From the NCBI RefSeq assembly GCF_051097895.1, contig NZ_CP142525.1, positions 1,410,001-1,442,000 on the forward strand: a stretch of DNA of 32,000 bases. Reading direction: 5' to 3'. The stretch is from Psychrobacter sp. HD31 (GTDB lineage Bacteria; Pseudomonadota; Gammaproteobacteria; Pseudomonadales; Moraxellaceae). Positions 3,597 through 18,514 of this stretch are shown here, piece by piece. How positions within the stretch are numbered: the stretch's first letter is position 1; every line of letters begins with the position of its first letter. The position numbers and the translations under genes were made by a program. Below the pieces are notes generated by a model. The model was given only the letters and a program-made list of their open reading frames with translations, was not told where the DNA came from and did not search any database.

Positions 3597-4808
3597 GTGA
3601 TTATGAGTTTATCAACACAAGATTTAAAAAACATTACGGTCATTGGCGCAGGTTATGTTGGTTTATCAAATGCCATTTTATTAGCACAAGAGCATCTAGA
3701 CACCAAAGTTACGCTATTTGATATCAATAGCGATCGCATCGCTCAGTTACAACAACAAAAATCACCATTACAAGATAAAGAGATTATTGATTTTTTAAGC
3801 AACCAGCCTCTTAATTTTTTTGCAACAGATGATGCGTCTCACATATACAAAGACGCAGATGTCGCAATTATTGCAACGCCAACCAATTATGACATTGCCA
3901 GCGGAAAGTTTGACACCTCATCAGTTGAGTCCAGTATTAGATCCGTACGCGAACAAAATCCATCGGTACCAATCGTCATTAAATCGACCATCCCTATTGG
4001 CTTTACTAAAAACATCCATCAGCAATTTGATGAAAATATTATATTTATGCCCGAGTTTTTACGAGAAGGGCAAGCATTGTATGATAATTTGCACCCATCT
4101 CGTATTATTGTTGGTGCGACTAACCAACAAACTAATTTTGTAGAAAAATTAATGGCATTATATAAAAAAGCAAGTTTAGAAGAGCACCTTGAATGCTTGC
4201 AAATGCCGCCAACCGAAGCAGAAGCCGTTAAACTATTTGCTAATAGTTACTTGGCTACCCGCATCTCCTTTTTTAACGAGTTAGACAGCTTTGCCGAGTC
4301 AAACCAACTTGATAGTCAATCTATTATCACAGGTATTGGTCTAGACCCTCGCATTGGGCAACATTATAACAACCCATCTTTTGGGTATGGTGGTTATTGC
4401 CTACCTAAAGACACTCAGCAATTAAAAGCAAATTATGAAGGCGTACCATCTAACGTCATTCACGCAGTGGTGGATGCAAATAATACTCGAAAACGTTTTA
4501 TCGCACGGCAAATTATTGATAAAAATCCAAAAAGCGTCGGAATTTATCGTTTAAGTATGAAAAAAGATGCAGATAATTTTAGAGATTCAGCCATTTTAGA
4601 CATTATTAATACCTTAAAACAGCATGGGCTTACCATCACCATTTATGAGCCTGCCATTCAAGACAATGAATTTCAAGGATGTGCCATCATCGCTGATTTA
4701 AATACCTTTAAACAAGCCAATGATTTAATTGTTGCTAACCGCTGGCATGATGAGTTAAATGCCGTGGCTAAAAAAGTTTACACAAGAGATGTATTTGGGT
4801 TTAGTTAA
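3597..4808 (+). CDS. ugd: UDP-glucose 6-dehydrogenase (canonical, motif-complete)
   Basis: The ORF is 403 aa. It has the Rossmann loop VIGAGYVGLS, then PEFLREGQA, the K/N block AVKLFANSYLATRISFFNE and the nucleophile loop GYGGYCLPKD. The track start at 3597 is GTG; ATG at 3603 is the more likely start. Confidence 0.9.
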   Translation: MIMSLSTQDLKNITVIGAGYVGLSNAILLAQEHLDTKVTLFDINSDRIAQLQQQKSPLQDKEIIDFLSNQPLNFFATDDASHIYKDADVAIIATPTNYDIASGKFDTSSVESSIRSVREQNPSVPIVIKSTIPIGFTKNIHQQFDENIIFMPEFLREGQALYDNLHPSRIIVGATNQQTNFVEKLMALYKKASLEEHLECLQMPPTEAEAVKLFANSYLATRISFFNELDSFAESNQLDSQSIITGIGLDPRIGQHYNNPSFGYGGYCLPKDTQQLKANYEGVPSNVIHAVVDANNTRKRFIARQIIDKNPKSVGIYRLSMKKDADNFRDSAILDIINTLKQHGLTITIYEPAIQDNEFQGCAIIADLNTFKQANDLIVANRWHDELNAVAKKVYTRDVFGFS

Positions 4809-6121: not shown

Positions 6122-6141
6122 ATACTTTACCTATTACTGAG

Positions 6142-7932
6142 TTACGGGTTATTTTGATTACTTGAAGATTGATTTTGCATGATATGCTTCAATAATTGAT
6201 TGGTTGACTCATCAAAACTAAAACTTAAATCATCATTGCTGATATCAACATCGAAACAGTCGAACACTTCATTCGCAACCTTTTTCCCCATTTCTACGCC
6301 CCACTGATCAAACGGGTTAATCTCCCAAATAGTTGCCATAACAAATACTTTGTGTTCATATAAAGCTATGAGAGATCCTAGGCTATATGGCGTTAGGGAA
6401 TCTAATAAGATAGTGGTAGAAGGCTGATTACCATGATAGTTCTTAAATCTATCATTTAGAGAGGCTCCACTTTGTGATGCGCTATTTTTAGTCTCGTCAC
6501 TTGCTTGGTTACCAAATGCCAACACCCGTGATTGAGCCAAACAGTTTGCCAAACTTAACTGATGTTGTTGCTGTAAAGTTTGACTATGATTAGCACGATT
6601 AGTTTGTGTGACGTTAATATCAGCTTCACTACCAATTATATGATTATATCGTTCTACACAAGCAATAAAATCACAAGAAACTTTTTGAGTACCTTGATGG
6701 AGCAACTGATAAAAGGCATGTTGTGCATTTGAGCCAACCTCACCCCACAAGATTGGACAAGTATCATAATTAACTGCTTCACCTGTTTTAGTAACCGACT
6801 TACCATTACTCTCCATCTCTAGCTGAGTTAAATAACTTGGTAAGTACTTAAGTCTCCCATCATACGGCAATACTGTATGCGCATTTATGTTTAAAAAAGT
6901 ACTATTCCAAACCCCAATGAGTCCCATCATCACTGGCATATTTTGCTTAAAATCAGTATTAGCAAAGTGTTCATCCATTGCATGAGCGCCAGCCAATAGT
7001 TGATAAAAATTGTCCATACCAATACGTATAGCAACCGCCAGACCAATAGCGGACCACAACGAAAATCGCCCCCCTACCCAGTCCCAAAACCTTAACTGAT
7101 TGTCAGGATGAATACCCCATTTTGTTGCTTTTTGAGAGTTAGCAGATACACCAATAAAGTGGCGATGCAAAACGGTTGCTTTTGGCGCAAACTGACATAA
7201 CCAGGCAAGCGCTGTTTTAGCGTTAGATAAAGTGTCTAAAGTGCCAAATGATTTTGATGCGATAATAAAAAGTGACGACTCAGGATTTAACTTTTTTAAA
7301 AGCCCCTCTAGTTGACTGCCATCCATATTTGAAACAAAGTGCACTTTAATACTGGTATCCGACCACTCATCTAATGCAGAAGCTGTCATCAGAGGACCTA
7401 AGTCAGACCCACCAACACCCAAATTAACCACATCGGTAATGGCCTTGCCAGAATAGCCACGCCAAATGCCACCACGAATGCGATTAACTATTTTATCCGT
7501 TTGTTCTAGGCTTTGATGTACCTCAGCAACCACATCTTTACCATCAACCATTAATACAGATTGTTTAGGCAACCTTAATGCCGTATGTAGGGCTTCTCTA
7601 TCCTCGCTGTTATTAACTTTTTTTCCTTGCAGTAAATCGTCAATTTGTTTTTTTAGGTTTTTTTCATTAGCCAGTGCTAACAAACTATCAACCACCTGCT
7701 TATCAACAAGCTGTTTGCTATAGTCAAAATACATCCCGACTTCATTAATAACAAATTCTTGTTGTCTCGGTTTTTTTGAAGCCTGGCTATTAGACTGATT
7801 TTCTTTAATATCTTGTAAAAAAAGCTTGGGTAATGACCAAGGCTGACTGGCTAACCGCGCCAACTTTTGCCAACTTTGGCTATCATCAAAATTTTGGAAG
7901 TTATTGGGGTGGTCTGCAAGGAATTTAGACAT
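6142..7932 (-). CDS. pgi: glucose-6-phosphate isomerase
   Basis: The ORF is 596 aa. Recognisable PGI blocks include GVGGSDLGP, GRFSLWSAIGL, ESNGK, PILWGEVGSNAQHAFYQLLHQG and SLGSLIALYEHKVF...FDQWGVEMGK. It is somewhat longer than E. coli Pgi because of Q/N/S-rich insertions. Confidence 0.92.
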   Translation of the reverse strand: MSKFLADHPNNFQNFDDSQSWQKLARLASQPWSLPKLFLQDIKENQSNSQASKKPRQQEFVINEVGMYFDYSKQLVDKQVVDSLLALANEKNLKKQIDDLLQGKKVNNSEDREALHTALRLPKQSVLMVDGKDVVAEVHQSLEQTDKIVNRIRGGIWRGYSGKAITDVVNLGVGGSDLGPLMTASALDEWSDTSIKVHFVSNMDGSQLEGLLKKLNPESSLFIIASKSFGTLDTLSNAKTALAWLCQFAPKATVLHRHFIGVSANSQKATKWGIHPDNQLRFWDWVGGRFSLWSAIGLAVAIRIGMDNFYQLLAGAHAMDEHFANTDFKQNMPVMMGLIGVWNSTFLNINAHTVLPYDGRLKYLPSYLTQLEMESNGKSVTKTGEAVNYDTCPILWGEVGSNAQHAFYQLLHQGTQKVSCDFIACVERYNHIIGSEADINVTQTNRANHSQTLQQQHQLSLANCLAQSRVLAFGNQASDETKNSASQSGASLNDRFKNYHGNQPSTTILLDSLTPYSLGSLIALYEHKVFVMATIWEINPFDQWGVEMGKKVANEVFDCFDVDISNDDLSFSFDESTNQLLKHIMQNQSSSNQNNP

Positions 7933-7941
7933 AATGTTTAA

Positions 7942-8811
7942 TCAATCATTTAGTTGCTGTTGGGCAAAGTAAATAAATGCTTGCATATAAGTGCTCATAT
8001 CGCCCGCATCATAACTGGCACCTTTCATGGTCGTCACGTTTACACCTTTGGTATTAATCAATGCATCAATGGCATCTGTTAATTGTATTTCACCACCCAC
8101 AGAAGCCTTTGTTTTTGCTAAATGGTCAAATATTTCATTAGCAAATACATAACGCCCAACCACTGCTAAATTAGAGGGAGCTACTTCTTTACTTGGCTTT
8201 TCAATAAATCCCGCTACCGAAAAATTCAAATTACTTTGCGACTGTACCTTTTGTAAATCATCATCTGATTTTAGCTGGGCAATACCATATTTATGTACAT
8301 CATCATCACTAACTTCATCAACCAAAATCTGTGAATGATGCACAGCTTCAAACTGCTGAATCATATAGGCCAAGTTATCAGACTGCATATTGGTAGTGAA
8401 CGGATCTAAAACCACATCTGGCAGCATAACCACAAAGTCGTTTTCTCCAACGATTGGGCGAGCTGCTAATACCGCGTGTCCAAGCCCTAAGGGCTTACCT
8501 TGACGTATCATGGATACATGCACATCTTCTGGCAACCAATTTAAACTATCTGCCAGCTCATTTTTACCTTTGGTTCTAAGCTGAGTATCTAACTCTGCAT
8601 TTACATCAAAGTAGTTTTCAATCGCACTTTTTTGAGCATGACCCACCAAAACAATATGTTTTATTCCTGCTTTTACCGCCTCTTCTACCACGTAATGAAT
8701 TGCAGGACGATTACCCAAAGGTAACAGCTCTTTTGGGACAGACTTAGACAATGGCAACATTCGTGTACCAAACCCCGCAACGGGGATCACGGCATGGATA
8801 ATTTTTGACAT
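7942..8811 (-). CDS. galU: UTP--glucose-1-phosphate uridylyltransferase
   Basis: The ORF is 289 aa. The N-terminal AVIPVAGFGTRMLPLSKSVPKELLPL and later GLGHAVL and VGRYV motifs are typical of GalU. Confidence 0.92.
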   Translation of the reverse strand: MSKIIHAVIPVAGFGTRMLPLSKSVPKELLPLGNRPAIHYVVEEAVKAGIKHIVLVGHAQKSAIENYFDVNAELDTQLRTKGKNELADSLNWLPEDVHVSMIRQGKPLGLGHAVLAARPIVGENDFVVMLPDVVLDPFTTNMQSDNLAYMIQQFEAVHHSQILVDEVSDDDVHKYGIAQLKSDDDLQKVQSQSNLNFSVAGFIEKPSKEVAPSNLAVVGRYVFANEIFDHLAKTKASVGGEIQLTDAIDALINTKGVNVTTMKGASYDAGDMSTYMQAFIYFAQQQLND

Positions 8812-8988: not shown

Positions 8989-10836
8989 TTATTCAACCGT
9001 CACACTTTTCGCCAAGTTTCTTGGTTGATCCACATCAGTTCCTCGAGTAACAGCAACATGATAGGACAACAACTGCACAGGCACACTATAAACAACTGGC
9101 GCTAATAACTCGTCTACTTCTGGTATATAAATAACGTGAATACCCTCTTCTTCTTCAATGCCAGAATTTTCACTAGCAAATACAAATAATTCACCATGGC
9201 GCGCATGCACCTCTTGCATATTTGCCTTTAACTTATCAAGCATACTATCATTTGGTGCTAACACAACCACTGGCATATCTTTATCAATTAGGGCAAGTGG
9301 ACCATGTTTAAGCTCACCGGCTGCATAGCCTTCTGCATGAATATAGGAAATTTCTTTCAGTTTTAACGCACCTTCTAGCGCAATTGGAAACTGACTATGA
9401 CGCCCTAAGAAAATTGTACTCGTCTTATTTTCAAAAGACTCTGTCCACTGTTTAATCGTTTTGTCTAGATTAACAGCCTGATAGAGTTGCCCTGATAGTT
9501 TATGCATCTGTCCAATGATGTGATTTTCAACAGATAGGTCAAGGCGCTGCTGAATACGACCAACTTTTAATACCAACAGCATAAGTGCAACCAACTGAGT
9601 GGTAAATGCTTTGGTAGACGCAACCCCAATTTCAACGCCTGCTTGTGTTGGTAAATAAATATCCGTTTCACGCACCATAGAAGAAGTCGGGACATTACAT
9701 AGTGCCAAAGTCTGTAAACCTTGGATATCATTATTCTTGTACATCTTCTGCACAGCTCGTAACGCCGACAGCGTATCGGCTGTTTCACCTGATTGCGAAA
9801 TACAAATTAATAGAGTGTCATCACAAACCACTGGATGACGATATCTAAACTCGCTCGCAATTTCAACAGAACAAGGCAATCTGGTTAATTGCTCAAACCA
9901 ATACTTTGCAACCAGTCCAGAATGATAACTGGTACCACAAGCAAGAATTTGCACACAGCGTACCTGTTGCAATCTTTCATTATGTACCCCTAAAAAATCA
10001 GGTTTTAAGTGATTGGTGGTTACTCCCATATCAAGCGTTCGACTAACCGCATCTGGCTGCTCGTAAATTTCTTTGAGCATATAGTGCTTAAACTCACCTT
10101 TATCGGCATTATGTTGAGTGGCGTCTAATTCCTTAATTGCACGTTTCACTGGTTGACCATTCGCAAATACCTCAACATGATTGCGTGTTAATCTAGCAAT
10201 ATCACCTTCTTCAAGATACATAAAACGATTGGTAACTGGCAATAAGGCTAACTGGTCAGATGCAATAAAGTTTTCACCAATACCAACACCAATCACTAAA
10301 GGTGAACCTAGCCTAACGGTTATCAACTCATCTGGATGATCGGCATGAATAACCCCTAAAGCAAACGCACCATGTAATTTAGGAACTACCAGTTCCACTG
10401 CTTTTAATAGATCTTGAGTGCTTTGATATGCGTAATGAATAAGGTGTGCCACTACCTCAGTATCGGTCTCTGATGTAAACTGATAACCTTCAGCTATCAT
10501 CTCTTTTTTCAACTGAGCAAAGTTTTCCACAATCCCATTATGTACAACTGAAATCTTACCAGATACATGAGGATGTGCATTATGCTGTGCTGGTTCGCCA
10601 TGCGTTGCCCATCGAGTATGGGCGATACCTGTTGTACCAACAAAACAACCACTATCCATATTAACAGCATCAACTAAAGCTTGTACTTTGCCAACCTGAC
10701 GTTCTCTATGAAGTTGATTATTCTGAATAATGCTTAACCCAGCCGAATCATATCCACGATATTCTAGACGTTTTAATCCTTCTAATAAGATTTCTACAAT
10801 ATTTCTTTGGGCAATTGCACCAACGATTCCACACAT
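8989..10836 (-). CDS. glmS: glutamine--fructose-6-phosphate aminotransferase (isomerizing)
   Basis: The ORF is 615 aa. It starts MCGIVGAI (N-terminal nucleophile Cys), has tandem SIS domains (ACGTSYHSG, SQSGETADT) and ends NLAKSVTVE. Confidence 0.95.
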   Translation of the reverse strand: MCGIVGAIAQRNIVEILLEGLKRLEYRGYDSAGLSIIQNNQLHRERQVGKVQALVDAVNMDSGCFVGTTGIAHTRWATHGEPAQHNAHPHVSGKISVVHNGIVENFAQLKKEMIAEGYQFTSETDTEVVAHLIHYAYQSTQDLLKAVELVVPKLHGAFALGVIHADHPDELITVRLGSPLVIGVGIGENFIASDQLALLPVTNRFMYLEEGDIARLTRNHVEVFANGQPVKRAIKELDATQHNADKGEFKHYMLKEIYEQPDAVSRTLDMGVTTNHLKPDFLGVHNERLQQVRCVQILACGTSYHSGLVAKYWFEQLTRLPCSVEIASEFRYRHPVVCDDTLLICISQSGETADTLSALRAVQKMYKNNDIQGLQTLALCNVPTSSMVRETDIYLPTQAGVEIGVASTKAFTTQLVALMLLVLKVGRIQQRLDLSVENHIIGQMHKLSGQLYQAVNLDKTIKQWTESFENKTSTIFLGRHSQFPIALEGALKLKEISYIHAEGYAAGELKHGPLALIDKDMPVVVLAPNDSMLDKLKANMQEVHARHGELFVFASENSGIEEEEGIHVIYIPEVDELLAPVVYSVPVQLLSYHVAVTRGTDVDQPRNLAKSVTVE

Positions 10837-11273
10837 ACCGGGATTTCCTCGTAATTAAATTAATAAATAATTTTTTCTTCTAAGTATTCTAGATTTTACG
10901 CTGTTATATAAAGTAGATAAAGGTTCATTTCACTAACGATTTGGAAATATAATATTTTAGAACGATTAATAATATAAGAACATAATTAGATACGTAAGAA
11001 CCACAATGATTATTAAAATAATAAACCATTATTTTAGTGAATATTATTGTTCTAATACCAAGAAGTTCTCAGATATTACAGAGACTAACCTTTATAATTG
11101 ATAAAAACATTAATAACAGTTTAACAAGTAAGATTTTTGATGTTTCAAATAAAAATCATAAAACTATAAATCTTCTCAACCTAGAAACTGCTTATGTAAT
11201 ATTTTATCTGCCAATTCAGAAAAACCATGAAGAAATTAAAATATAAAATCCAGACTATAAATTTTTAAAATCA

Positions 11274-12008
11274 TCACCCATACTCTTTTAGAAATAATGT
11301 AGGGTTGTCCGTAATTATCGTATCTACCCCTATATCAATAAGTCTATTGGCTACTTTTAAATTATTTACAGTCCAAGCAGTTACTTGAATTCCATAACGA
11401 TGACATAAACTCACAATCTCCTCTGTAATTAGCGTGTACTTTAAACCGACTGATTTTGCTTGTATTCTTAACAGTGAATTGACAAGATCTGCCTTCTTAA
11501 AGGTAGATAATACTAAAAGACCTCTAGAAAACTCTCTAAAACCTTTATGATTTTTCAAAAGCTCTAGCAACTGAATGTCAAAGCTTGTCAGAACAATAGG
11601 AAGCTTAAACAGTTCTGAATTACAAAAGTTTTGATAAAGGATATTGACCATTTTCCGTTTGTCCATCCTAGGATGCGTCTTTATCTCCAGTTCAATATGG
11701 TTATATCCATATAAATATGGAACAATTTCAGTAAGAGTTAACATTCTATGGCCAGTATTAACGAAAAAAACTTTTTTACAGTAATCAGCGGTTAACTGCT
11801 CTATCATACCTTGTTGTCTGCAAACTCTAGCCAACGTATTGTCATGTGCTAAAACCAGTTGATTATCAGAAGTAATTTGAACATCAAACTCAATCCCGTC
11901 AATACCCTCTTTAATCAGTCTATGGGCTTGAATAAAACCTTCCTTTGAGTTTTCAAGCACTTCTGCTTTAGCACCACGATGTCCTAATATTTTAATTTTA
12001 CAATTCAT
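11274..12008 (-). CDS. glycerophosphodiester phosphodiesterase (GDPD family), no signal peptide
   Basis: The ORF is 244 aa. ILGHRGAKAEVLENSKEGF...GIDGIEFDVQITSDNQLVLAHDNTL matches the GDPD HRG...E.D...HD signature. The C-terminal WTVN...GVDTIITDNP is also typical of the family. Confidence 0.85.
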   Translation of the reverse strand: MNCKIKILGHRGAKAEVLENSKEGFIQAHRLIKEGIDGIEFDVQITSDNQLVLAHDNTLARVCRQQGMIEQLTADYCKKVFFVNTGHRMLTLTEIVPYLYGYNHIELEIKTHPRMDKRKMVNILYQNFCNSELFKLPIVLTSFDIQLLELLKNHKGFREFSRGLLVLSTFKKADLVNSLLRIQAKSVGLKYTLITEEIVSLCHRYGIQVTAWTVNNLKVANRLIDIGVDTIITDNPTLFLKEYG

Positions 12009-12049
12009 TTTCTTATATTCCTAATATCATTTTTGAATATCAAGATACC

Positions 12050-12088
12050 ACAAAAAGCACACAGCACCTAATTGGTACCATGTGCTTT
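12050..12088 (-). terminator. strand-specific rho-independent terminator after the repeat-bearing TagF-like gene
   Basis: The minus-strand RNA AAAGCACAUGGUACC-aauua-GGUGCUGUGUGCUUU forms a 15-bp stem (three G.U wobbles) running into UUUUUG. On the plus strand the wobbles become C.A mismatches. Confidence 0.65.
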
Positions 12089-12115
12089 ATATTAAAGAGA
12101 AGTTTGAGAATAGAG

Positions 12116-13582
12116 CTAGAACGAAGGTTCACTGCTCTCTTGAGAGTTGGTAAGATTTTCTAACGCTTGATCTCGTTCGTCGCAAATCATTTCAATTGCA
12201 GCAAGAAAGTTTTTAGTACTTTCTTTATTAATATAGTCAACATCACCTAAAAAATATCGTTTTACTTTATTACGGTTTAACTTTATCGTATCTTCTTCCA
12301 TCTCACGATGAATAATAGTTATTATCTCATTGAAATTATTACTATTAATCATAATAGCACCATTAGTAATAAAGGGTTTGTCATTACGCTCAGTGGTTTT
12401 ATAAAACATATCAGTCATAAGCATTGGCTTATCAGTTGCTAAATAATCAATCGCTACTGCTGAATTGTCAAAAATAGCTAAATCTACATGTTCGTAAAGT
12501 GAATTGATATCACCTCCTATGACAACTTGAGCTTTAAAATGACCTGTTAAGCGTTTAATAATCTGGTCATTTATTTTTTTCGACTGTACTAAGCGACTAC
12601 CCGTATTTGGGTGCGGCTTATAAATCAAATATAAACTAGGATCTGCTAAAATCTCATCAATAATTTGTAGACCATAATCATTTAATGATGTGTAGTTCAT
12701 CGATTCATGCGTTGATTCCCATGTTGGCGCATATAACACAACTTTTCTATCTTCTATTGTAGAGTTCCCAAATAATAATTGATCATCTAAGATAGTTGGA
12801 TCTTTCTTTGCAACATCAGGTTTAGAAATTTTTTCAATATATTCTAATTGTGGTCGTCCAATAGTAATATAGCGATTCATATCTTTATTTAACAGATTAT
12901 TACTATATTTATCATAAGCTGCTGGACCAACTAAAAAAACATAATCATAAGCTTTTGTTTGATTACTGACGGTTGATAATTTATCGCTTTCTCCATGGTT
13001 GATATGAACATGAAATGCATCTCGTGTAATTAATGACTGGAAATTCTTTTGTCCATGATTAACATATAATACACATTTAAATTGACCTTGTTCATATACC
13101 TGCATCACATTATCTATCAAACGACAATAAACAACTTGAAAGTCTGTATTCTTTTTAATCCAGTCAAACGTTTCCTTCTTACGTACAATAAAAATAAAGC
13201 TTTTTACTTTCACTAACTCTTTTAGAGGACCTAACCATTGCTCTATTTGATATAGATTGCCCAATCCCCCATCAAAATATAAAGCGACTTCATCTTTCAA
13301 CTGAATATTATGAAAAATTCTATTTTCAGTGGTGGCTGCTTTCTTTGCCGGAGCCTTTGCAACTGGTTTCTTTGCCGGTGCCTTTGCGGCTGGTTTCTTT
13401 GCCGGTGCCTTTGCGACTGGTTTCTTTGCCGGTGCCTTTACGGCTGGTTTCTTTGCCGGTGCCTTTGCGACTGGTTTTTTCTGAACAACTACATTCTCAG
13501 CTGTTCGTTTGTATATACTGTCGGCAACAGAAATCAAAGGGGTCTTTAAAAATTTAGATACCTTGCTCATATCTTCTCTCAT
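12116..13582 (-). CDS. CDP-glycerol glycerophosphotransferase (TagF/TagB family) with N-terminal KKPxAKAPA polycationic repeat
   Basis: The ORF is 488 aa. The C-terminal two-thirds carry TagF-family blocks (VVLYAPTWES, LIYKPHPN, DLAIFDNSAVAIDYLATDKPMLM). Residues 35-82 are five 9-aa repeats. An alternative start is ATG 13570. Confidence 0.8.
   Translation of the reverse strand: MREDMSKVSKFLKTPLISVADSIYKRTAENVVVQKKPVAKAPAKKPAVKAPAKKPVAKAPAKKPAAKAPAKKPVAKAPAKKAATTENRIFHNIQLKDEVALYFDGGLGNLYQIEQWLGPLKELVKVKSFIFIVRKKETFDWIKKNTDFQVVYCRLIDNVMQVYEQGQFKCVLYVNHGQKNFQSLITRDAFHVHINHGESDKLSTVSNQTKAYDYVFLVGPAAYDKYSNNLLNKDMNRYITIGRPQLEYIEKISKPDVAKKDPTILDDQLLFGNSTIEDRKVVLYAPTWESTHESMNYTSLNDYGLQIIDEILADPSLYLIYKPHPNTGSRLVQSKKINDQIIKRLTGHFKAQVVIGGDINSLYEHVDLAIFDNSAVAIDYLATDKPMLMTDMFYKTTERNDKPFITNGAIMINSNNFNEIITIIHREMEEDTIKLNRNKVKRYFLGDVDYINKESTKNFLAAIEMICDERDQALENLTNSQESSEPSF
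13337..13480 (-). repeat. in-frame 27-bp tandem repeat, 5 full units plus a partial, encoding (KKPxAKAPA)n
   Basis: On the plus strand the unit ctggtttctttgccggtgcctttgcg[a/g] is read head-to-tail, with point differences only at the V/A codons. Confidence 0.95.
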
Positions 13583-13609
13583 AGTTTTCTTGTTTCTATA
13601 AAAAAGTTA

Positions 13610-14965
13610 CTAGGACTCTTTTCTGGAGTTAAATTTAGAAAAAACACTGTTAATACTTAAAATGTCTTGTCTTGTTAATCTATCTGATTCTTTTGATTCT
13701 CGCTGAATAACCGATAGAAACTCACTGAGTTCATATCTTAATCCATCACCATCCAATTCAAAATTATAGGTAAACTCTTCTGATGCATCTTCAAATCGGA
13801 TATGATACCTTCTGGTTAGCCACCATGGAGCAGGCACATAAATGTATCCTTTAGTTCCTGAAATAATCGCGCTACCTTCCGTCTTTGCACCGATGCCTAC
13901 TGTAGACGTAGAAATACCCTGTTCATGTTCTAAGATAATATTAGTATATCCATCTACACCAATCATTTCTCTTTCTATAAACTCAATTCTTGTTGGTGTC
14001 CCTAGTACTCTTTGTGCTAATAACAACGGATAAGTTGCTAATTCATTGACAGCACCACCATAAGGTGACTGCCACTCTCTAAGACTACGGTCTGTTATCA
14101 ACTTAGAGAATGATGCTCGAACTTCTACAACATCACCAATTTTCCCACGTTCAATTTCAGAAAGCAGTTTATTAAAACCAGGGAAAAAGGCTGTTTTAAT
14201 TGCTTCCATCAAAACCAAACCTTTTTCATCAGCTATATCATATAGTTCCTTTAGATGCTCAGCCTTTAGTGTAATTGGCTTCTCACACAATACATGCTTG
14301 CCTGCTAAAAGTGCCTGTTTCGCATACTCAAAATGAGTCTCATGAGGAGTAGCAATATATACTGCATCAATAGGTGTATTAAGCAAATCCTCTATATTAT
14401 CAAAACCATAATGGATTTTATGATCTCGAATAAACTTTTCAACATTCAATAAGTTTCGTGACATTACCCCATATATATCTGCATTATTAAGATGTCTAGA
14501 CTCTTTCACAAATCTACCAGCAATCCTACCAGTCCCAACAACACCAATATTGTATATTTTTAAAGTCTCAGCTCTTAGCATAGTACTAGAAATACCTTTA
14601 GTACGAGGCAAATATACGACTTTAGTATACTCATTCAAATAGTCAAACTTTCCTACCCAATCATCACCAATAGCAAAAATATCAATATCATATTTTTGCA
14701 TATCCGTCGCTTTTTGAAATTTATGATATTCAATAATAACTTCATCAACAAAATCTAATTCTTTTACAGCTGCCGCACGTTCTTCCACTGTCTGTAAAAC
14801 ATTAAGCTTACCACGAGAGCGATCATAGTCTTCATCTGTAACACCAACCACTAAATAATCACCCAACTCTTTTGCTCTACGAAGTAGATTAATATGCCCT
14901 ATATGCAGCATGTCATAAGTACCATAAGTGATAACTTTAGTTATACCTTTATTTTCTATATTCAT
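13610..14965 (-). CDS. fusion protein: TagD-type glycerol-3-phosphate cytidylyltransferase (N) + Gfo/Idh/MocA NAD(P) oxidoreductase (C)
   Basis: The ORF is 451 aa. The first ~130 aa read VITYGTYDMLHIGHINLLRRAKELGDYLVVGVTDEDYD...RTKGISSTMLR (HxGH and RTxGISST cytidylyltransferase motifs). The remainder begins YNIGVVGTGRIAGRFV and includes DAVYIATPHETHFEYAKQALLAGKHVLCEKP (Gfo/Idh/MocA Rossmann plus EKP). An AAGGA Shine-Dalgarno sequence lies 8 nt upstream of the ATG. Confidence 0.85.
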   Translation of the reverse strand: MNIENKGITKVITYGTYDMLHIGHINLLRRAKELGDYLVVGVTDEDYDRSRGKLNVLQTVEERAAAVKELDFVDEVIIEYHKFQKATDMQKYDIDIFAIGDDWVGKFDYLNEYTKVVYLPRTKGISSTMLRAETLKIYNIGVVGTGRIAGRFVKESRHLNNADIYGVMSRNLLNVEKFIRDHKIHYGFDNIEDLLNTPIDAVYIATPHETHFEYAKQALLAGKHVLCEKPITLKAEHLKELYDIADEKGLVLMEAIKTAFFPGFNKLLSEIERGKIGDVVEVRASFSKLITDRSLREWQSPYGGAVNELATYPLLLAQRVLGTPTRIEFIEREMIGVDGYTNIILEHEQGISTSTVGIGAKTEGSAIISGTKGYIYVPAPWWLTRRYHIRFEDASEEFTYNFELDGDGLRYELSEFLSVIQRESKESDRLTRQDILSINSVFSKFNSRKES

Positions 14966-15217
14966 AGTATAGTTCCTTAAGCAAAGACAATATTAATATA
15001 TCTGTGCCAATTCAATTATAGTCACAATATTGCAACAATTATTTTTTATAATCAGATAAACGCTATATTAGTTTAATTAGCGAGTCATCATTAAAATTTA
15101 TAATCAACTATCCATACATAGTATAGTTAATAACCTCTACCATAAATTTCATATAAAAATAAAGAAAATTATTCACTTATAGCTAAGGCTAATTTTTAGA
15201 GTACATACAAAAGTTAA

Positions 15218-16378
15218 TTATAAGTTTGAATTTAGAGTAGTATACTCATACAATTTGAATTCATCTTTGTTAAGAATTACAGAATTAGGAGTATCATACG
15301 CACTATCAAAATTTTTCATTGGTGTTTGCCAATCACCGTAGTTTTCAGTTAAATATAAATCAAAATCAGCAGGAATCAGATAGCTAGCACCTAGAAAATA
15401 ATGTTCTACTAGCTCAAAAGGCTTATTATGCCATTTTTGCTTTACTCCTGCATGCCAATAATCATCAAATTCACGATAAGTAATAAATACATCAACATTT
15501 GTTCCATTTAAATGGCGTAACTTAATCACATCACGAGTTCGGCTCTTGATAATATAAAAATTACCGGATGTTGCAATTTTTTGTATCAATTGCTCATAAG
15601 TATAAGTATCCCATACGCCAACATCTATGTCTTTATCATGCCCCAAGAAGTTATTTTCACGAATACAGCCAAGTAAAGTACCACTAATTAAGAAAAACTC
15701 AACACCTTTTTGGTCTAAAATTGTTTTTAAATCCTGCAAAGCAACATTTGCTTGTTTAGTATCAATATTTTTTACCAACTTAATACCTTTTACTCCCTTC
15801 CATGTCGGACTCTTTACAATCTCTAACGCTTCAATGGTTTGACCACAACGCATATATGCATTAATTTTCGCAGTAATCAAATCGTCATTATCTAATAAGC
15901 TTGTTTGACATTCCACTTCAGCTATATTACGTAAAAATCTTTCACAATCTTTTCCATTCTCTACCAAATTAGACATTAATAACCAAGATTTTTTTCGTGT
16001 TGTAAACTTTACCAAGCTTTCTAATAAACACCATGCTTCATTACAACGATTAATTCTAATTAAAATTTCTGTATATAAAAATACGACTTCCGCAATTTGA
16101 TGATAATCTGGAATTGACAGTACCTCATGTTCAGCTTTACCATAGTCAGCAAATAAAAAATAACTAAGCGCAGTATAGTAATGTCCAAGAAGTAAATTTC
16201 TATTTATTAAAAAATTAGCAATTTCTCGCACCTTAAAATGATTACCTTTGGAAAGGTAATACTCAGCTAAACCTGCAGAAATCAACATAGTTTTTGAGTC
16301 ACTATATTGACTGTCTCTTATGAGTCTTTTTCCAAGCTTCCAGCAATTATAAATACCAGAAGCTTTCACTTTTTTCAT
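15218..16378 (-). CDS. LicD-family phosphotransferase with ~230-aa N-terminal TPR-like helical-repeat region
   Basis: The C-terminal half reads VEFFLISGTLLGCIRENNFLGHDKDIDVGVW...YLTENYGDWQTP (LicD LLGxxR...DxDxD signature). The N-terminal half has repeated TPR-like A/G/Y-spaced helices (AGLAEYYLSKGNHFKVREIANFLI; LGHYYTALSYFLFADYGKAEHEVL). The track ORF extends to a GTG at 16504. I prefer ATG 16378, which has a GAGG 11 nt upstream and avoids the 86-nt overlap. Confidence 0.75.
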   Translation of the reverse strand: MKKVKASGIYNCWKLGKRLIRDSQYSDSKTMLISAGLAEYYLSKGNHFKVREIANFLINRNLLLGHYYTALSYFLFADYGKAEHEVLSIPDYHQIAEVVFLYTEILIRINRCNEAWCLLESLVKFTTRKKSWLLMSNLVENGKDCERFLRNIAEVECQTSLLDNDDLITAKINAYMRCGQTIEALEIVKSPTWKGVKGIKLVKNIDTKQANVALQDLKTILDQKGVEFFLISGTLLGCIRENNFLGHDKDIDVGVWDTYTYEQLIQKIATSGNFYIIKSRTRDVIKLRHLNGTNVDVFITYREFDDYWHAGVKQKWHNKPFELVEHYFLGASYLIPADFDLYLTENYGDWQTPMKNFDSAYDTPNSVILNKDEFKLYEYTTLNSNL

Positions 16379-16418
16379 ACTAAATATAACCTCGTATGCA
16401 CTTTTATAAGAACTCGAC

Positions 16419-17534
16419 TTATCTATTCCTATTTTTTTCTCTTTTATTAGCAATAATGCGCAACCTTCTTCGTATTTTGTAAAAGTACCACATATGACTA
16501 ACACTACGTTTCCATTTACCTTTTAATACCTCATTGATAGCCAAAATAACTTCGTCAGTCGCTTGATGAGTCGTGAAAAATAGTAAATCATATAGGTCTT
16601 GGGAGCAAACTACACCATGGGCTAAGGCCTTTTGAATCGTATCTTCTAAATCACTAGCATTATTTACTATATAACCTAATTCATCTCGTCTAGCTAACTC
16701 AAGACTCTTCTCACCAATTATATCGCCACAATTTTTTATTTGAGATTCTGGCAACCCCAGTAATAGCAGAGGCTTATAACAATAAATTCCTTCAAAGATC
16801 GCACCACTATAATCAGATAACAATACATCAGTTACTGATAATAATGACAAAAGCTCAGTATCTTCAAAGAAAAAAAATAAATGAGGATATTTCTGTCGAT
16901 ACACTTCTTTATCTTTAGTAAGTAAATCATTATGATGAATTTTAATAAGTATATTATATTCAGAATGTAATCGGCTTAACTCATCGATATAATAATCAAA
17001 ACTAGAGATATCTCCCCAACTCGGGGCATAAAGGATGGTTGGGTTATTTTTATTAATATACCGAGTATATTTCAATTTACTTTCATAATGAAATCTTGAG
17101 TTATACCATCGGTCAAATCTAGGACAGCCAGTAATCTTAGTCGGAGATAGATGAGATATTTTATGTTTTGTATATTCACCATACACTAAATTTAAATTTG
17201 CTAGTGCTCGCCAGTCTCCGTAGTTATGTTTTTCCTTAGCATAACCATATTGTAGCATCATCACTTTTGCTTTTGTAAACTTATAAATTTGTTCAAAGAT
17301 TGTTTGTACAATGATGATTCTTGCAAAATCTTGAATCGTCTCATGAACTTCCAAATAGTCTACTAAAATTACTGGATTTGAAATTTCATGTAAATAATCT
17401 TTTAAAACAAAATCACTTCCTGATCTTTTTACTTCCACTAAAGTTGCATTAGGTAGTCGTTGTAAAAGTGGTTTGAAATGCAAATACTGGAACATATTCC
17501 AAACTAAAAAGACTGTAGTTTTGTGGTTTGCCAT
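16419..17534 (-). CDS. CDP-glycerol glycerophosphotransferase (TagB/TagF family), short form
   Basis: The ORF is 371 aa. PTILYAPSWGD, LIKIHHN and DVLLSDYSGAIFEGIYCYKPLLLL correspond to the TagF-family blocks also seen in the 488-aa paralog. It has a basic C-terminal tail. Confidence 0.75.
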   Translation of the reverse strand: MANHKTTVFLVWNMFQYLHFKPLLQRLPNATLVEVKRSGSDFVLKDYLHEISNPVILVDYLEVHETIQDFARIIIVQTIFEQIYKFTKAKVMMLQYGYAKEKHNYGDWRALANLNLVYGEYTKHKISHLSPTKITGCPRFDRWYNSRFHYESKLKYTRYINKNNPTILYAPSWGDISSFDYYIDELSRLHSEYNILIKIHHNDLLTKDKEVYRQKYPHLFFFFEDTELLSLLSVTDVLLSDYSGAIFEGIYCYKPLLLLGLPESQIKNCGDIIGEKSLELARRDELGYIVNNASDLEDTIQKALAHGVVCSQDLYDLLFFTTHQATDEVILAINEVLKGKWKRSVSHMWYFYKIRRRLRIIANKREKNRNR

Positions 17535-17552
17535 TCTAATTATTTTAATAAT

Positions 17553-17580
17553 AAAAAAACCCCTCCATTATAGAGGGGCT
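17553..17580 (-). terminator. rho-independent terminator of the suc operon (after sucD)
   Basis: The minus-strand RNA reads CCCCUC-uauaaug-GAGGGG followed by UUUUUUU. It lies 59 nt after the sucD stop. Confidence 0.8.
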
Positions 17581-17596
17581 CCAGTATTACTTTCAA
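17567..17596 (-). promoter_or_regulatory. candidate sigma70 promoter for the island, overlapping the sucD terminator
   Basis: On the minus strand, TTGAAA (17596-17591) is followed by an 18-nt spacer and TATAAT (17572-17567). The -10 hexamer is the terminator loop. The first island gene starts at 17534. Confidence 0.3.
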
Positions 17597-17638
17597 GATA
17601 TTTCACACTTAACATACATTACAAATATTACAATTTCA

Positions 17639-18514
17639 TTACCAACCAGTCACTTCTGCAACTTTTTCGCCAATTTTAGACGGATCACGGGTGTAAGCAA
17701 TACCCGCTGCTTCAAATGCTTTAAATTTCTCTTCTGCAGTACCTTTACCACCAGAGATAATAGCACCAGCATGCCCCATACGTTTGCCTTTAGGTGCTGT
17801 CACACCAGCGATATAACCAATAACCGGCTTAGTAACATGGTCTTTAATGTAAGCAGCAGCTTCTTCTTCTGCTGTACCACCAATTTCACCAATCAATACG
17901 ATTGCCTCGGTTTGTGGATCTTCTTGGAACAGTTTTAACGCATCAATCTGGTTCATACCCGGGATTGGGTCACCACCAATACCAATACAAGTTGATTGAC
18001 CAAAGCCTAGTTTCGTTGTTTGTGCAACCGCTTCATAAGTTAACGTACCTGAACGAGAAATAACACCAACTTTACCTGGCAAATGGATATGACCTGGCAT
18101 AATACCAATTTTACACTCACCTGGTGTGATAACGCCTGGACAGTTAGGGCCAACCATCTTAACGTCGCCAGCTTGCTCGATATAGCGTTTGGCTTTTAAC
18201 ATGTCTAATGTCGGTACGCCTTCAGTAATCACTACGATTAGCTTAACACCAGCATCAACCGCTTCGATGATAGAATCTAATACAAATGGTGCTGGCACAT
18301 ATATTACCGAAGCATCCGCTTCAGTAGCTGCCATTGCTTCATTCATTGTGTTCCAAACTGGCAAACCTAAGTGAGTTTGACCACCTTTACCAGGCGTCAC
18401 ACCACCAACAATTTTTGTACCATATTCAATCGCTTGTTCTGAATGGAAAGTACCATTTTTACCTGTAAAGCCCTGTACTAATACTTTGGTATCTTTATTT
18501 ATCAATACGCTCAT
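17639..18514 (-). CDS. sucD: succinyl-CoA synthetase subunit alpha
   Basis: The ORF is 291 aa. [33 protein letters not shown] and [15 protein letters not shown] (phosphohistidine loop) are present. An AGGAG Shine-Dalgarno sequence precedes it. Confidence 0.97.

What the first reader, a model, noticed from the sequence alone, without database searches (positions are those of the whole stretch)
10837..17638. Low-GC five-gene CDP-alcohol / phosphodiester-glycopolymer (teichoic-acid-like) island wedged between the TCA operon and glmS, with no exporter or primer enzyme
Seen in sequence: five co-directional genes lie directly after the sucD terminator and before glmS, and all belong to phosphodiester-polymer chemistry.
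- TagF/TagB-like transferase (17534-16419).
- Helical-repeat+LicD phosphotransferase (16378-15218).
- TagD-type cytidylyltransferase fused to a Gfo/Idh/MocA oxidoreductase (14965-13610).
- A second TagF-like enzyme with a polycationic repeat N-terminus (13582-12116).
- A cytoplasmic GDPD phosphodiesterase (12008-11274).
The individual 60-nt lines I counted inside the block are 23-37% G+C, against 43-45% in sucD and glmS. Spacers are long and almost pure AT (252 bp and 437 bp). Ribosome-binding sites look weaker than the AGGAG-type sites of the sdh/suc genes. This composition fits a horizontally acquired insert.
Established knowledge: TagD plus TagF make poly(glycerol phosphate) wall teichoic acid in Firmicutes. 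TagF-like polymerases also build teichoic-acid-like capsules in a few Gram-negatives (Actinobacillus pleuropneumoniae, Neisseria meningitidis serogroups H/Z, Hib Bcs3), but there they sit inside ABC-transporter capsule loci.
Inference: none of the expected partner machinery is present in the 32 kb, namely TagGH/KpsMT-type exporters, flippases, Wzy, initiating transferases (TagO/WecA, TagA) and lipid-linker enzymes. So this is either a self-contained module that decorates an existing glycan (LOS, capsule or glycoprotein) with polyol phosphate, or a polymer pathway using machinery encoded elsewhere. I do not recognise this combination of parts, in this location, as a described system.
Basis: partly seen in the sequence, partly recalled or inferred. 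Interest (0 to 1): 0.75.

Follow-up and report, generated by a model that had tools for sequence, protein, structure and literature searches.

The report
Teichoic-acid-like capsule synthesis gene cassette
This low-GC five-gene block in a Psychrobacter genome is a swappable capsule-synthesis cassette whose first enzymes match the recently described 'transition transferases' that start glycerol-phosphate capsules in Actinobacillus, so it is a new variant of a known system and not an unknown one.

Summary
Five co-directional genes (11274-17534, minus strand) encode two TagF-like enzymes, a helical-repeat+LicD protein, a TagD-Gfo/Idh/MocA fusion and a GDPD. The block is 31.8% GC against 39.2% for the rest of the window.

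The window is from Psychrobacter sp. HD31. TagF1 aligns end to end with Actinobacillus pleuropneumoniae Cps3A (44% identity). The LicD protein matches Cps3C (49%), and the TagD domain matches CpsB (49%). [quoted passage not shown] So a primer enzyme is present and the combination is a described system.

In about 35 Psychrobacter genomes the sucD-galU junction is either empty or holds unrelated capsule cassettes (polysialic acid, Stealth/TagF-like, glycosyltransferases), often with a KpsS-family gene.

What differs here:
- there is no glycosyltransferase;
- the likely polymerase is a stand-alone TagF-like enzyme on a lysine-rich tether;
- TagD is fused to an apparently active oxidoreductase;
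- a cytoplasmic GDPD is present;
- no kpsS or exporter lies within 32 kb.

I could not test whether HD31 encodes KpsMTED/KpsSC elsewhere. Verdict: new variant of a known kind, moderate interest.

The parts
17639..18514 (-). sucD, the conserved left flank of the variable site
   Evidence: NF004230 E 9.5e-142. 90-95% identical in named Psychrobacter genomes (87% in one fragmentary Psychrobacter MAG), where the downstream content varies.
17556..17582 (-). Terminator-like hairpin plus T-run after sucD. A promoter-like site matching 11 of 12 positions overlaps it (17596-17567).
   Evidence: These are consensus matches only.
16419..17534 (-). TagF1: CpsA-type (TagB-like) priming glycerol-3-phosphate transferase ('transition transferase 1'), 371 aa
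   Evidence: PF04464. 44% identity over 344 aa to A. pleuropneumoniae CpsA, E 1e-104. End-to-end alignment with HH and SDxSGAIF motifs conserved. The last 40 residues carry net charge +12 against +11 in App CpsA. This matches the electropositive C-terminal helix noted for Cps7A.
15218..16378 (-). Helical-repeat (TPR-like) + LicD protein: CpsC-type poly(glycerol-3-phosphate) polymerase ('transition transferase 2'), 386 aa
   Evidence: PF04991. 49% identity over 363 aa to App Cps3C (P0127), E 1e-120. 42-43% identity to Neisseria proteins named 'capZB'. The GTLLG...DKDID motif is present. The N-terminal half gives only sub-threshold TPR hits. They fall at the same position as significant TPR hits in Cps3C and in the L002 orthologue.
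14966..15217 (.). 252-bp spacer of 23% GC separating the CpsA/CpsC-like pair from the TagD-GFO/TagF2/GDPD trio
   Evidence: The two halves differ in divergence from the L002 copy: 49-53% against 59-79%.
13610..14965 (-). TagD-type cytidylyltransferase (residues ~8-135) fused to a Gfo/Idh/MocA oxidoreductase (~138-451): CDP-glycerol or CDP-polyol supply
   Evidence: Pfam and NCBIfam. TagD domain: 1coz E 1.4e-34 and 49% identity to App CpsB. HxGH and RTxGISST residues are invariant in 36 homologues. AF2 model pLDDT 92; nearest structures are 3e9m, dihydrodiol dehydrogenase 2o48 and KijD10. GxGRIA, CEKP and GGAxNELxxYP motifs are present.
12116..13582 (-). TagF2: stand-alone TagF-like (GT-B) polyol-phosphate transferase, the probable serotype-specific polymerase. 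It has an N-terminal helix pair, a disordered lysine/proline/alanine tether and a catalytic domain. The true start may be Met5 (13570).
   Evidence: PF04464. AF2 pLDDT 84: helices 2-29, disordered 31-85, GT-B 88-450. Best fold hits are TarL 8va1, TagF 3l7j and Bcs3 8a0c. H191 and H324 are invariant in 40 family members. 74% identity to the L002 copy and 51% to a gene in the KpsS-containing cassette L004. Family size: 179 clusters at E<=1e-30.
13336..13477 (-). 27-nt tandem repeat, 5.3 copies, encoding (AKKPVAKAP)n in the TagF2 tether
   Evidence: TRF score 242, 92% matches. The tether has a different length and sequence in L002 (AKKPA x4) and in P0363 and P0376.
11274..12008 (-). Cytoplasmic glycerophosphodiester phosphodiesterase (GDPD), 244 aa, no signal peptide
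   Evidence: PF03009 E 4.6e-31, full length. Best solved relatives are 9f49/9euf GP-PDE domains (E 5e-23) and 2pz0. No hydrophobic segment. Also present in L002 and L097 but not in L004 or the App locus.
10837..11273 (.). 437-bp spacer of 22% GC between GDPD and glmS. It holds no KpsS remnant.
8989..10836 (-). glmS, a native-composition gene that lies at this junction only in the HD31/L002/L097 lineage
   Evidence: TIGR01135 E 2e-248. It is absent from the junction in all other Psychrobacter loci.
4805..8811 (-). galU-pgi-ugd-like genes, the conserved right flank of the variable site (nucleotide-sugar supply)
   Evidence: Pfam. These genes follow sucD directly in genomes with an empty site.

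Best explanation
The block is the serotype-specific biosynthesis cassette ('region 2' type) of a teichoic-acid-like, ABC-transporter-dependent (group-2-type) capsule. It sits in a Psychrobacter hot spot between sucD and galU where capsule cassettes are exchanged.

Proposed mechanism:
1. The TagD domain of the fusion makes CDP-glycerol. This is inferred from 49% identity to CpsB. The fused Gfo/Idh/MocA domain most likely supplies or remodels the polyol phosphate by an NAD(P)H-dependent step, for example reduction of a triose or ketose phosphate. That step is inferred and its substrate is unknown.
2. TagF1, the CpsA orthologue, transfers the first glycerol-3-phosphate onto the beta-Kdo oligomer of a lyso-phosphatidylglycerol anchor made by KpsS/KpsC.
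3. [quoted passage not shown]
4. TagF2, held near the membrane or the anionic linker by its N-terminal helices and lysine-rich tether, elongates the chain with polyol phosphate. No glycosyltransferase is present, so the product would be a pure polyol-phosphate polymer resembling type I wall teichoic acid.
5. The cytoplasmic GDPD trims or recycles glycerophosphodiester chains, or supplies glycerol-3-phosphate. This is inference only.
6. Export would use KpsMT/KpsED-type machinery encoded elsewhere in the genome. This was not shown.

Status of the steps. The activities in steps 2 and 3 were shown biochemically for the Actinobacillus orthologues. The orthology was shown here. All activities of the HD31 proteins are inferred.
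For: Orthology to the characterised system:
- TagF1 is 44% identical over 344 aa to App CpsA, and the TPR-LicD protein 49% over 363 aa to App CpsC (P0127). The TagD domain is 49% identical to CpsB.
- The App locus used is cpxDCBA-cpsABCDE. Its CpsD is essentially identical to PDB 8QOY 'Cps3D'.
- Cps7A is a Kdo-specific Gro3P transferase and Cps7C a LicD-family poly(Gro3P) polymerase. Both were characterised in PMC11666461.
- The electropositive C-terminal tail is shared with CpsA.

The site behaves as a capsule hot spot:
- L008 has neuC/neuA/neuB, a polysialyltransferase and a KpsS-family gene.
- L028 has a GT2+TagF-like 1016-aa enzyme, a Stealth protein and a KpsS-family gene.
- L004 has TagD-GFO, a TagF2 homologue (51%) and a KpsS-family gene.
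- Eleven further inserts hold nonulosonic-acid and glycosyltransferase genes and five Capsule_synth genes.
- The junction gene is named 'LipB/KpsS family' in many Psychrobacter genomes.
- Other genomes have an empty site.

Supporting features:
- Low GC, as is typical of group-2 region 2 (the generalisation is from my own knowledge).
- All five proteins are soluble.
- Catalytic motifs are intact.
- All five ORFs are intact in three assemblies despite 49-79% amino-acid identity.
Against: - No kpsS, kpsC, kpsMT or kpsED gene, or remnant, lies in the 32 kb.
- The three genomes with this block also lack the KpsS-family gene that accompanies most other cassettes at the site.
- I could not inspect the rest of the HD31 genome. 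A KpsS-based protein search returned no HD31 protein, but its list was saturated by closer relatives and is uninformative.
- TagF2 has only weak similarity to the polymerase domain of CpsD (27% over 111 aa), so its donor and acceptor are unknown.
- The roles of the GFO domain and the GDPD are guesses.
- The TagD-GFO fusion also occurs in Wzx-type loci, so it is not specific to group-2 capsules.
Confidence: 0.72

Rival explanations
1. Self-contained decoration module. The enzymes add single or short polyol-phosphate substituents to an existing glycan such as lipooligosaccharide, another capsule or a glycoprotein. The module needs no exporter of its own.
For: - No exporter, KpsS/C or initiating transferase lies in the window or next to the block in any of the three genomes.
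- TagD-GFO occurs with one LicD or TagF-like gene inside Wzx/Wzc-type loci, where decoration of a repeat unit is the natural reading.
Against: - TagF1 and the LicD protein are full-length orthologues (44% and 49%) of a Kdo-specific primer and a processive Gro3P polymerase, not of side-chain transferases.
- Three CDP-alcohol phosphotransferases are more than a single decoration needs.
- Relatives carry complete capsule polymerase sets at this site.
Confidence: 0.12
2. Orphaned cassette. The biosynthesis genes persist, but the lineage (2.17 Mb genome) has lost the Kdo-lipid anchor and export genes. The block is then silent, decaying, or makes a polymer that stays in the cytoplasm.
For: - The KpsS-family gene that flanks most other cassettes at the site is missing here, and glmS occupies that side.
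- The genome is small (2,174,416 bp contig).
- TagF1 and TagF2 have weak or absent Shine-Dalgarno sites.
Against: - All five ORFs are intact, with catalytic residues conserved, in three assemblies whose copies are only 49-79% identical. This argues for purifying selection.
- A terminator and promoter-like site precede the block.
Confidence: 0.08
3. Wall-teichoic-acid-like pathway on a polyprenyl carrier. The polymer is built on undecaprenyl-phosphate-linked sugar made by WecA-type enzymes encoded elsewhere. It is exported by a TagGH- or Wzx-type system and ligated to another envelope component.
For: - TagD, TagB-like and TagF-like families are those of the Gram-positive pathway.
- Nothing in the window fixes the anchor type.
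Against: - The closest relatives of TagF1 and the LicD protein are the Kdo-dependent capsule enzymes of Pasteurellaceae and Neisseria, not TagB/TarF.
- Neighbouring cassettes in the genus carry KpsS-family genes and no polyprenyl-pathway genes.
Confidence: 0.05

Closest known systems
Actinobacillus pleuropneumoniae serotype 3/7 capsule locus cpsABCD(E) with 'transition transferases' (Litschko et al. 2024, PMC11666461)
   Same: - A CpsA-type PF04464 primer with an electropositive C-terminal tail (44% identity).
- A CpsC-type TPR+LicD polymerase (49%).
- A TagD-type CDP-glycerol supplier (49%).
- All genes co-directional, low GC, encoding soluble cytoplasmic enzymes.
   Different: - Gene order is A-C-B, not A-B-C.
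- No CpsD-type multidomain TPR+TagF-like+glycosyltransferase polymerase. A 488-aa stand-alone TagF-like enzyme with a lysine-rich tether stands in its place.
- TagD is fused to a Gfo/Idh/MocA oxidoreductase.
- A GDPD replaces CpsE.
- The cassette is not adjacent to cpxDCBA-type export genes.
Neisseria meningitidis serogroup Z/H and related Neisseria/Pasteurellaceae capsule genes named capZB (CpsC homologues)
   Same: The HD31 TPR-LicD protein is 42-43% identical over about 90% of its length to proteins named capZB.
   Different: I did not examine the Neisseria loci here. From the literature they use multidomain TagF-like polymerases with glycosyltransferase domains (PMC5974469).
Campylobacter jejuni HS:1 capsule locus (HS1.09 polymerase, HS1.10 Cps3C homologue, HS1.11 TagD; PMC11924219)
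   Same: It has a TagD-type cytidylyltransferase, a CpsC homologue proposed to start the chain on poly-Kdo, and a TagF-like glycerol-phosphate transferase.
   Different: - HS1.09 is a 1095-aa TPR+TagF-like+GT4 enzyme that makes a galactose-glycerol-phosphate copolymer.
- No GFO fusion or GDPD is described.
- I made no direct sequence comparison here.
Gram-positive wall teichoic acid pathway (TagD, TagB, TagF/TarF, TarL)
   Same: - TagD domain E 1.4e-34 to B. subtilis TagD.
- TagF2 model's best fold hits are TarL and TagF.
- The logic of primer, then short linker, then main polymerase is shared.
   Different: - No TagO/TagA primer and no TagGH exporter.
- The linker polymerase is a LicD-family enzyme, not TarF.
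- The anchor is expected to be Kdo-lipid, not a polyprenyl-linked disaccharide.
Bifunctional CDP-alditol synthases (H. influenzae Bcs1; S. aureus TarI/TarJ)
   Same: Both couple a reductase with a cytidylyltransferase to make the CDP-activated polyol for a TagF-like polymerase. This comparison is from my own knowledge.
   Different: Those enzymes combine an IspD-type transferase with an SDR or MDR reductase. Here a TagD-type (PF01467) transferase is fused to a Gfo/Idh/MocA domain. Its substrate is unknown.
Group-2 capsule region 2 of E. coli K1 and N. meningitidis B (polysialic acid)
   Same: The same Psychrobacter junction carries neuC/neuA/neuB, a polysialyltransferase and a KpsS-family gene in strain I-STPA6b. 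This shows the site acts as a region-2-type slot.
   Different: The chemistry is different. In E. coli the region lies between kps regions 1 and 3. In Psychrobacter no exporter genes were seen at the junction, within the 10 kb beyond sucD that I could read.

Membership tests
CpsA-type transition transferase (TagB-like, PF04464) | PF04464 domain with full-length similarity to characterised CpsA | tested here: met
   PF04464 E 2.1e-10. 44% identity over 344 of 371 aa to App CpsA, which sits beside a CpsD identical to PDB Cps3D.
CpsA-type transition transferase (TagB-like, PF04464) | Long electropositive C-terminal helix | tested here: met
   Net charge of the last 40 residues is +12 in HD31, +13 in L002 and +11 in App CpsA. 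The feature is described for Cps7A. I did not model its helicity.
CpsA-type transition transferase (TagB-like, PF04464) | Transfers one Gro3P from CDP-glycerol to beta-linked Kdo | not testable with these tools
   This is a biochemical property, shown for Cps7A only.
CpsC-type LicD-family poly(Gro3P) polymerase | C-terminal LicD (PF04991) nucleotidyltransferase-fold domain with the acidic motif | tested here: met
   PF04991 E 8.6e-6. The GTLLG...HDKDIDV motif is present. 49% identity over 363 aa to Cps3C.
CpsC-type LicD-family poly(Gro3P) polymerase | N-terminal TPR domain | tested here: inconclusive
   HD31's own N-terminal half gives only sub-threshold hits (ANAPC3 E 0.14 at residues 67-120). 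Cps3C gives ANAPC3 E 2e-5 at 63-118 and the L002 orthologue gives TPR_14 E 3.5e-6. The alignment to Cps3C covers this region. I built no structure model.
Group-2 (ABC-transporter-dependent) capsule locus | KpsM/KpsT ABC exporter and KpsE/KpsD in or near the locus | tested here: not met
   None is in the 32-kb window. None appears among the 25 commonest Pfam families (of 66 matched; the rest were not listed) in junction cassettes of 11 relatives.
Group-2 (ABC-transporter-dependent) capsule locus | KpsS/KpsC beta-Kdo transferases (PF05159) | tested here: not met
   There is no gene or remnant in the window (tblastn best E 0.28). PF05159 genes are present at the same junction in L004, L008, L024, L028, L030, L036 and L039. 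A search for an HD31 copy was uninformative.
Group-2 (ABC-transporter-dependent) capsule locus | Variable, low-GC, serotype-specific biosynthesis region with soluble cytoplasmic polymerases | tested here: met
   31.8% against 39.2% GC. Presence or absence and cassette content vary among genomes. No transmembrane segments.
Wall teichoic acid pathway (Tag/Tar) | TagO/TagA-type initiation and TagGH export | tested here: not met
   No such families occur among the window ORFs.
TagD glycerol-3-phosphate cytidylyltransferase (TIGR01518) | HxGH and RTxGISTT motifs, and a score above the equivalog cut-off | tested here: inconclusive
   H21, H24, R121, T122, S126 and S127 are invariant in 36 homologues. 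1coz E 1.4e-34. However, the TIGR01518 score is 124 bits against a cut-off of 165, and the domain is fused rather than stand-alone.
Gfo/Idh/MocA oxidoreductases | Rossmann GxGxxG/A motif, EKP lysine and a catalytic Tyr/His in the C-terminal domain | tested here: met
   GTGRIA, CEKP (K229) and GGAVNELATYP (Y312) are present in HD31 and in the 29 closest homologues aligned. The fold matches 3e9m, 2o48 and KijD10 at TM 0.83-0.89 on the target. The substrate is unknown.
Glycerophosphodiester phosphodiesterase (PF03009) | Full-length GDPD TIM-barrel domain | tested here: met
   PF03009 E 4.6e-31 over residues 10-237, profile positions 1-243 of 244. The score is below the cut-offs of the UgpQ and GlpQ equivalog models.

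The most novel reading that the evidence does not exclude
The cassette makes something the Actinobacillus paradigm does not cover. The widespread TagD-Gfo/Idh/MocA fusion would be an uncharacterised bifunctional CDP-polyol synthase. It might reduce a cytidylylated or free triose/ketose phosphate to give a donor other than CDP-sn-glycerol-3-phosphate, or its enantiomer. The tethered TagF2 family would then polymerise that donor into a glycosyltransferase-free polyol-phosphate capsule. This capsule might be anchored or exported without the KpsS gene that accompanies other cassettes at the site. One hint that a redox step is essential: distant homologues that have lost the GFO catalytic Lys and Tyr are followed directly by a short-chain dehydrogenase gene.
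Probability: 0.2. Interest if true: 0.6.

Novelty: new variant of a known kind. Interest (0 to 1): 0.4.

Why it matters
- It extends the CpsA/CpsC 'transition transferase' mechanism, so far described in a few pathogens, to Psychrobacter (Moraxellaceae), where I found no earlier description.
- It shows that this module can be combined with a different, glycosyltransferase-free polymerase set.
- It identifies the sucD-galU junction as a capsule-cassette exchange site in Psychrobacter. The cassettes there include polysialic-acid, Stealth and TagF-like types, which is useful for capsule typing and as a source of new polymerases.
- It flags two uncharacterised enzyme types with many homologues that could be tested directly: the TagD-Gfo/Idh/MocA fusion, and the TagF-like enzymes with an N-terminal helix and a lysine-rich tether.
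- It corrects the first impression of an unrecognised stand-alone system.

Tried and rejected
- Exact-sequence look-ups of TagF2 and SucD found nothing. The HD31 chromosome itself is not readable with these tools; only a 4.6-kb Logan contig is. The genome-wide search for kpsMT/kpsSC was therefore impossible.
- A protein search seeded with a related KpsS-family protein listed only homologues of at least 67% identity, none from HD31. This is uninformative, not negative.
- The idea that TagD-GFO is a fusion of the pneumococcal CDP-2-glycerol enzymes Gtp2 and Gtp1 could not be tested. The primary paper is not held. The papers that are held give no domain information. No Gtp3-like gene accompanies the fusion in any locus seen, so I treat this as an untested lead.
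- PDB sequence searches for TagF1, TagF2 and the LicD protein found nothing.
- The fold search of TagF2 gave a generic GT-B/TagF-like answer with TM about 0.5. It does not identify the donor.
- The fold search of the fusion matched mostly uncharacterised oxidoreductases and gave no substrate clue.
- Literature searches found no description of the GFO fusion in capsule loci or of Psychrobacter capsule genetics. A search on the GP-PDE structures closest to the GDPD also found nothing useful.
- No tRNA or Rfam RNA marks the island borders.
- I considered a recent simple insertion shared by descent with the L002 lineage and rejected it. The flanks are 83-99% identical, but the CpsA/CpsC-like genes are only 49-53% identical. 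That is as far apart as each is from Actinobacillus.

Full report
**Source and layout.** The fusion protein is 100% identical to a protein of Psychrobacter sp. HD31, on a 2,174,416-bp contig. All genes below are on the minus strand unless marked.
- pcnB, a comEA-like gene and mazG
- a UDP-glucose dehydrogenase (+ strand) and a second ugd-like gene
- pgi and galU
- glmS (8989-10836)
- the five-gene block (11274-17534)
- sucD, sucC, lpdA, sucB and sucA
- a thiamine pyrophosphokinase gene (+ strand)
- sdhB, sdhA, sdhD and sdhC

**Observation check.** The five ORFs and their family assignments are confirmed by Pfam and NCBIfam.
- The block is 31.8% GC and the rest of the window 39.2%.
- Third-position GC is 0.24 in the block against 0.31 in the flanks (p = 0.0005).
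- The 437-bp and 252-bp spacers are 22-23% GC.
- A hairpin followed by a T-run lies after sucD.
- Shine-Dalgarno sites are missing only for the two TagF-like genes.
- No exporter, flippase, polymerase of the Wzy type, WecA/TagO/TagA or KpsS/C homologue lies in the 32 kb, and there is no KpsS remnant.
- None of the five proteins has a hydrophobic segment, so all are cytoplasmic or peripheral.

**The block is accessory.** I retrieved 80 loci using SucD as the query and mapped the window's proteins onto them. Among about 35 Psychrobacter/Moraxellaceae loci:
- sucD is followed within about 0.3 kb by galU-pgi-ugd...mazG in 9, and also in Moraxella osloensis;
- one extra gene intervenes in 8;
- inserts of 8 to more than 10 kb are present in at least 12.

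The four relatives closest by SucD (95%) either have an empty site (L007, L010, L077) or a different insert (L008). The same five-gene block plus glmS occurs at this junction in only two MAG assemblies, L002 and L097. The conserved flanks are therefore sucD and galU. glmS is part of the lineage-specific arrangement.

**What the other inserts are.**
- L008 carries neuC, neuA, neuB, a DUF6716 glycosyltransferase, an alpha-2,8-polysialyltransferase, an acetyltransferase and a PF05159 gene.
- L028 carries a 1016-aa GT2+TagF-like enzyme, a Stealth protein and a PF05159 gene.
- L017 carries glycosyltransferases.
- L004 carries TagD-GFO, two TagF-like genes (one 51% identical to TagF2), a TPR protein and a PF05159 gene.
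- Seventy-five ORFs from 11 further inserts are dominated by nucleotide-sugar enzymes, nonulosonic-acid genes and glycosyltransferases. They include five PF05159 genes. No ABC-exporter family is among the 25 commonest families.

The PF05159 gene is annotated 'LipB/KpsS family' across Psychrobacter. These are hallmark enzymes of ABC-transporter-dependent (group-2-type) capsules. The junction therefore behaves like a region-2 slot, with export genes encoded elsewhere in the genus.

**The key match.** The helical-repeat+LicD protein has 328 homologues. The best named ones come from Actinobacillus, Avibacterium and Neisseria, where some are named 'capZB'.
- The A. pleuropneumoniae homologue P0127 (49% identity) lies in a cpxDCBA-cpsABCDE locus. 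The CpsD of that locus is essentially identical to PDB 8QOY, 'TagF-like capsule polymerase Cps3D'.
- Against that locus, TagF1 is 44% identical over 344 aa to CpsA. The LicD protein is 49% identical over 363 aa to CpsC. The TagD domain is 49% identical to CpsB.
- TagF1 aligns end to end with CpsA and shares its strongly cationic C-terminal tail.

Litschko et al. (PMC11666461) characterised these enzymes. CpsA is a TagB-like, Kdo-specific transferase that adds the first glycerol-3-phosphate to the poly-Kdo glycolipid. CpsC is a LicD-family enzyme with a predicted N-terminal TPR domain that polymerises glycerol-3-phosphate. The main polymerase CpsD then elongates this linker. The block therefore does contain a primer enzyme, and three of its five genes belong to a described system.

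**What differs from that system.**

*No glycosyltransferase and no CpsD-type enzyme.* TagF2 (488 aa) stands in that position.
- Its model (pLDDT 84) shows two N-terminal helices, a disordered lysine/proline/alanine segment (residues 31-85) and a GT-B catalytic domain. The best fold matches are TarL, TagF and Bcs3.
- Two histidines, H191 and H324, are invariant in 40 family members.
- The family has 179 clusters at E<=1e-30. Most members are stand-alone enzymes of about 400-440 aa. They share an N-terminal 'MSKLxKLLxxPxxFF' helix, and several have lysine-rich tethers of differing sequence.
- In HD31 the tether is encoded by 5.3 copies of a 27-nt repeat.

*TagD is fused to a Gfo/Idh/MocA domain.*
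- The closest 120 homologues, all at least 52% identical, share this architecture.
- They head polysaccharide loci of several kinds, including Wzx/Wzc types.
- The oxidoreductase motifs are intact in HD31 and its 29 closest aligned homologues. More distant homologues have lost the catalytic Lys and Tyr. In at least one of these groups (P0107; loci L095 and L096) a short-chain dehydrogenase gene follows directly.
- Fold neighbours are mostly uncharacterised. They include the nucleotide-sugar enzymes KijD10 and GnnA.

*A cytoplasmic GDPD.* It accompanies the block in all three genomes. It is absent from the Actinobacillus locus and from L004.

*No adjacent KpsS-family gene.*

**Mosaic history.** Between HD31 and L002 the flanking proteins are 83-99% identical. 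The island proteins diverge unevenly:

| Protein | HD31 vs L002 identity |
|---|---|
| CpsA-like (TagF1) | 49% |
| CpsC-like (LicD) | 53% |
| GDPD | 59% |
| TagF2 | 74% |
| TagD-GFO | 79% |

The CpsA- and CpsC-like genes are about as far from each other as each is from Actinobacillus (44-51%). The 252-bp AT-rich spacer separates these two sub-modules. This pattern fits cassette exchange or diversifying selection, as is usual for capsule loci. It does not fit a single recent insertion.

**Most likely mechanism.**
1. CDP-glycerol is made by the TagD domain, with the GFO domain supplying or remodelling the polyol phosphate. The GFO role is inferred.
2. TagF1 primes a Kdo-lipid anchor.
3. [quoted passage not shown]
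4. TagF2 extends it into a glycosyltransferase-free polyol-phosphate capsule.
5. The GDPD trims or recycles chains.
6. Export uses Kps-type machinery encoded elsewhere.

Steps 2 and 3 rest on orthology to characterised enzymes. Everything else is inference. The largest gap is that I could not inspect the HD31 genome for kpsMTED/kpsSC.

**Verdict.** This is a new variant of a known kind of system, of moderate interest. The open biochemical questions are the function of the GFO domain, the product of TagF2, and the anchor and exporter used.

Noticed in passing
window 13336-13477: A 27-nt tandem repeat (5.3 copies, 92% matches) encodes the AKKPVAKAP tether of TagF2. The tether differs in length and sequence in the L002 copy and in other family members. 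Its copy number may therefore vary between strains.
   Followed up: partly
window 13570-13582: The annotated start of TagF2 (ATG at 13582) is probably four codons too early. The L002 orthologue and the wider family begin at 'MSKL/VSKF', which corresponds to Met5 (13570).
   Followed up: partly
window 8989-10836: glmS lies between the capsule block and galU only in HD31 and two MAGs (L002, L097). In all other Psychrobacter loci examined it is not at this junction. It occupies the position where other cassettes carry a KpsS-family gene on the opposite strand.
   Followed up: partly
L008 10984-18774 (Psychrobacter sp. I-STPA6b): A complete-looking polysialic-acid capsule cassette sits at the sucD-galU junction: neuC, neuA, neuB, a DUF6716 glycosyltransferase, an alpha-2,8-polysialyltransferase, an acetyltransferase and a KpsS-family gene.
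   Followed up: partly
L028 11475-17536 (Psychrobacter sp. ANT_WB68): The same junction holds a 1016-aa GT2+TagF-like enzyme together with a Stealth (hexose-1-phosphate transferase) protein and a KpsS-family gene. This is another phosphate-containing capsule type.
   Followed up: no
L095 10001-12072 and L096 (metagenome contigs): Distant TagD-GFO homologues (P0078, P0087, P0107) have lost the EKP lysine and the catalytic tyrosine of the GFO domain. In the two loci read for P0107 (L095, L096), a 243-aa short-chain dehydrogenase gene follows directly. This may be a replacement of the redox function.
   Followed up: partly
window 11274-17534 compared with L002 7725-13915: The island is mosaic. 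The CpsA- and CpsC-like genes are only 49-53% identical between HD31 and L002, while TagD-GFO and TagF2 are 74-79% identical and the flanks 83-99%.
   Followed up: yes
window 3597-4808 (+) and 4805-6121 (-): Two UDP-glucose/GDP-mannose dehydrogenase-family genes converge and overlap by 4 bp at their 3' ends. In P. immobilis (L091) a phosphoglucomutase gene occupies the position of the + strand gene.
   Followed up: no
window 25866-26519 (+): A thiamine pyrophosphokinase gene of low GC (32.9%) lies on the opposite strand between sucA and sdhB, interrupting the sdh-suc gene row. L097 also has a TPK gene upstream of sucA.
   Followed up: no
window 17567-17596: A promoter-like site matching 11 of 12 consensus positions overlaps the sucD terminator hairpin, immediately upstream of TagF1. 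It could drive the cassette independently of the TCA operon.
   Followed up: no
window 30200-32000: The stretch upstream of sdhC is AT-rich (29% GC at 30001-31000). It has no listed ORF of 50 aa or more apart from one 59-aa ORF. Any gene here probably runs off the window end.
   Followed up: no
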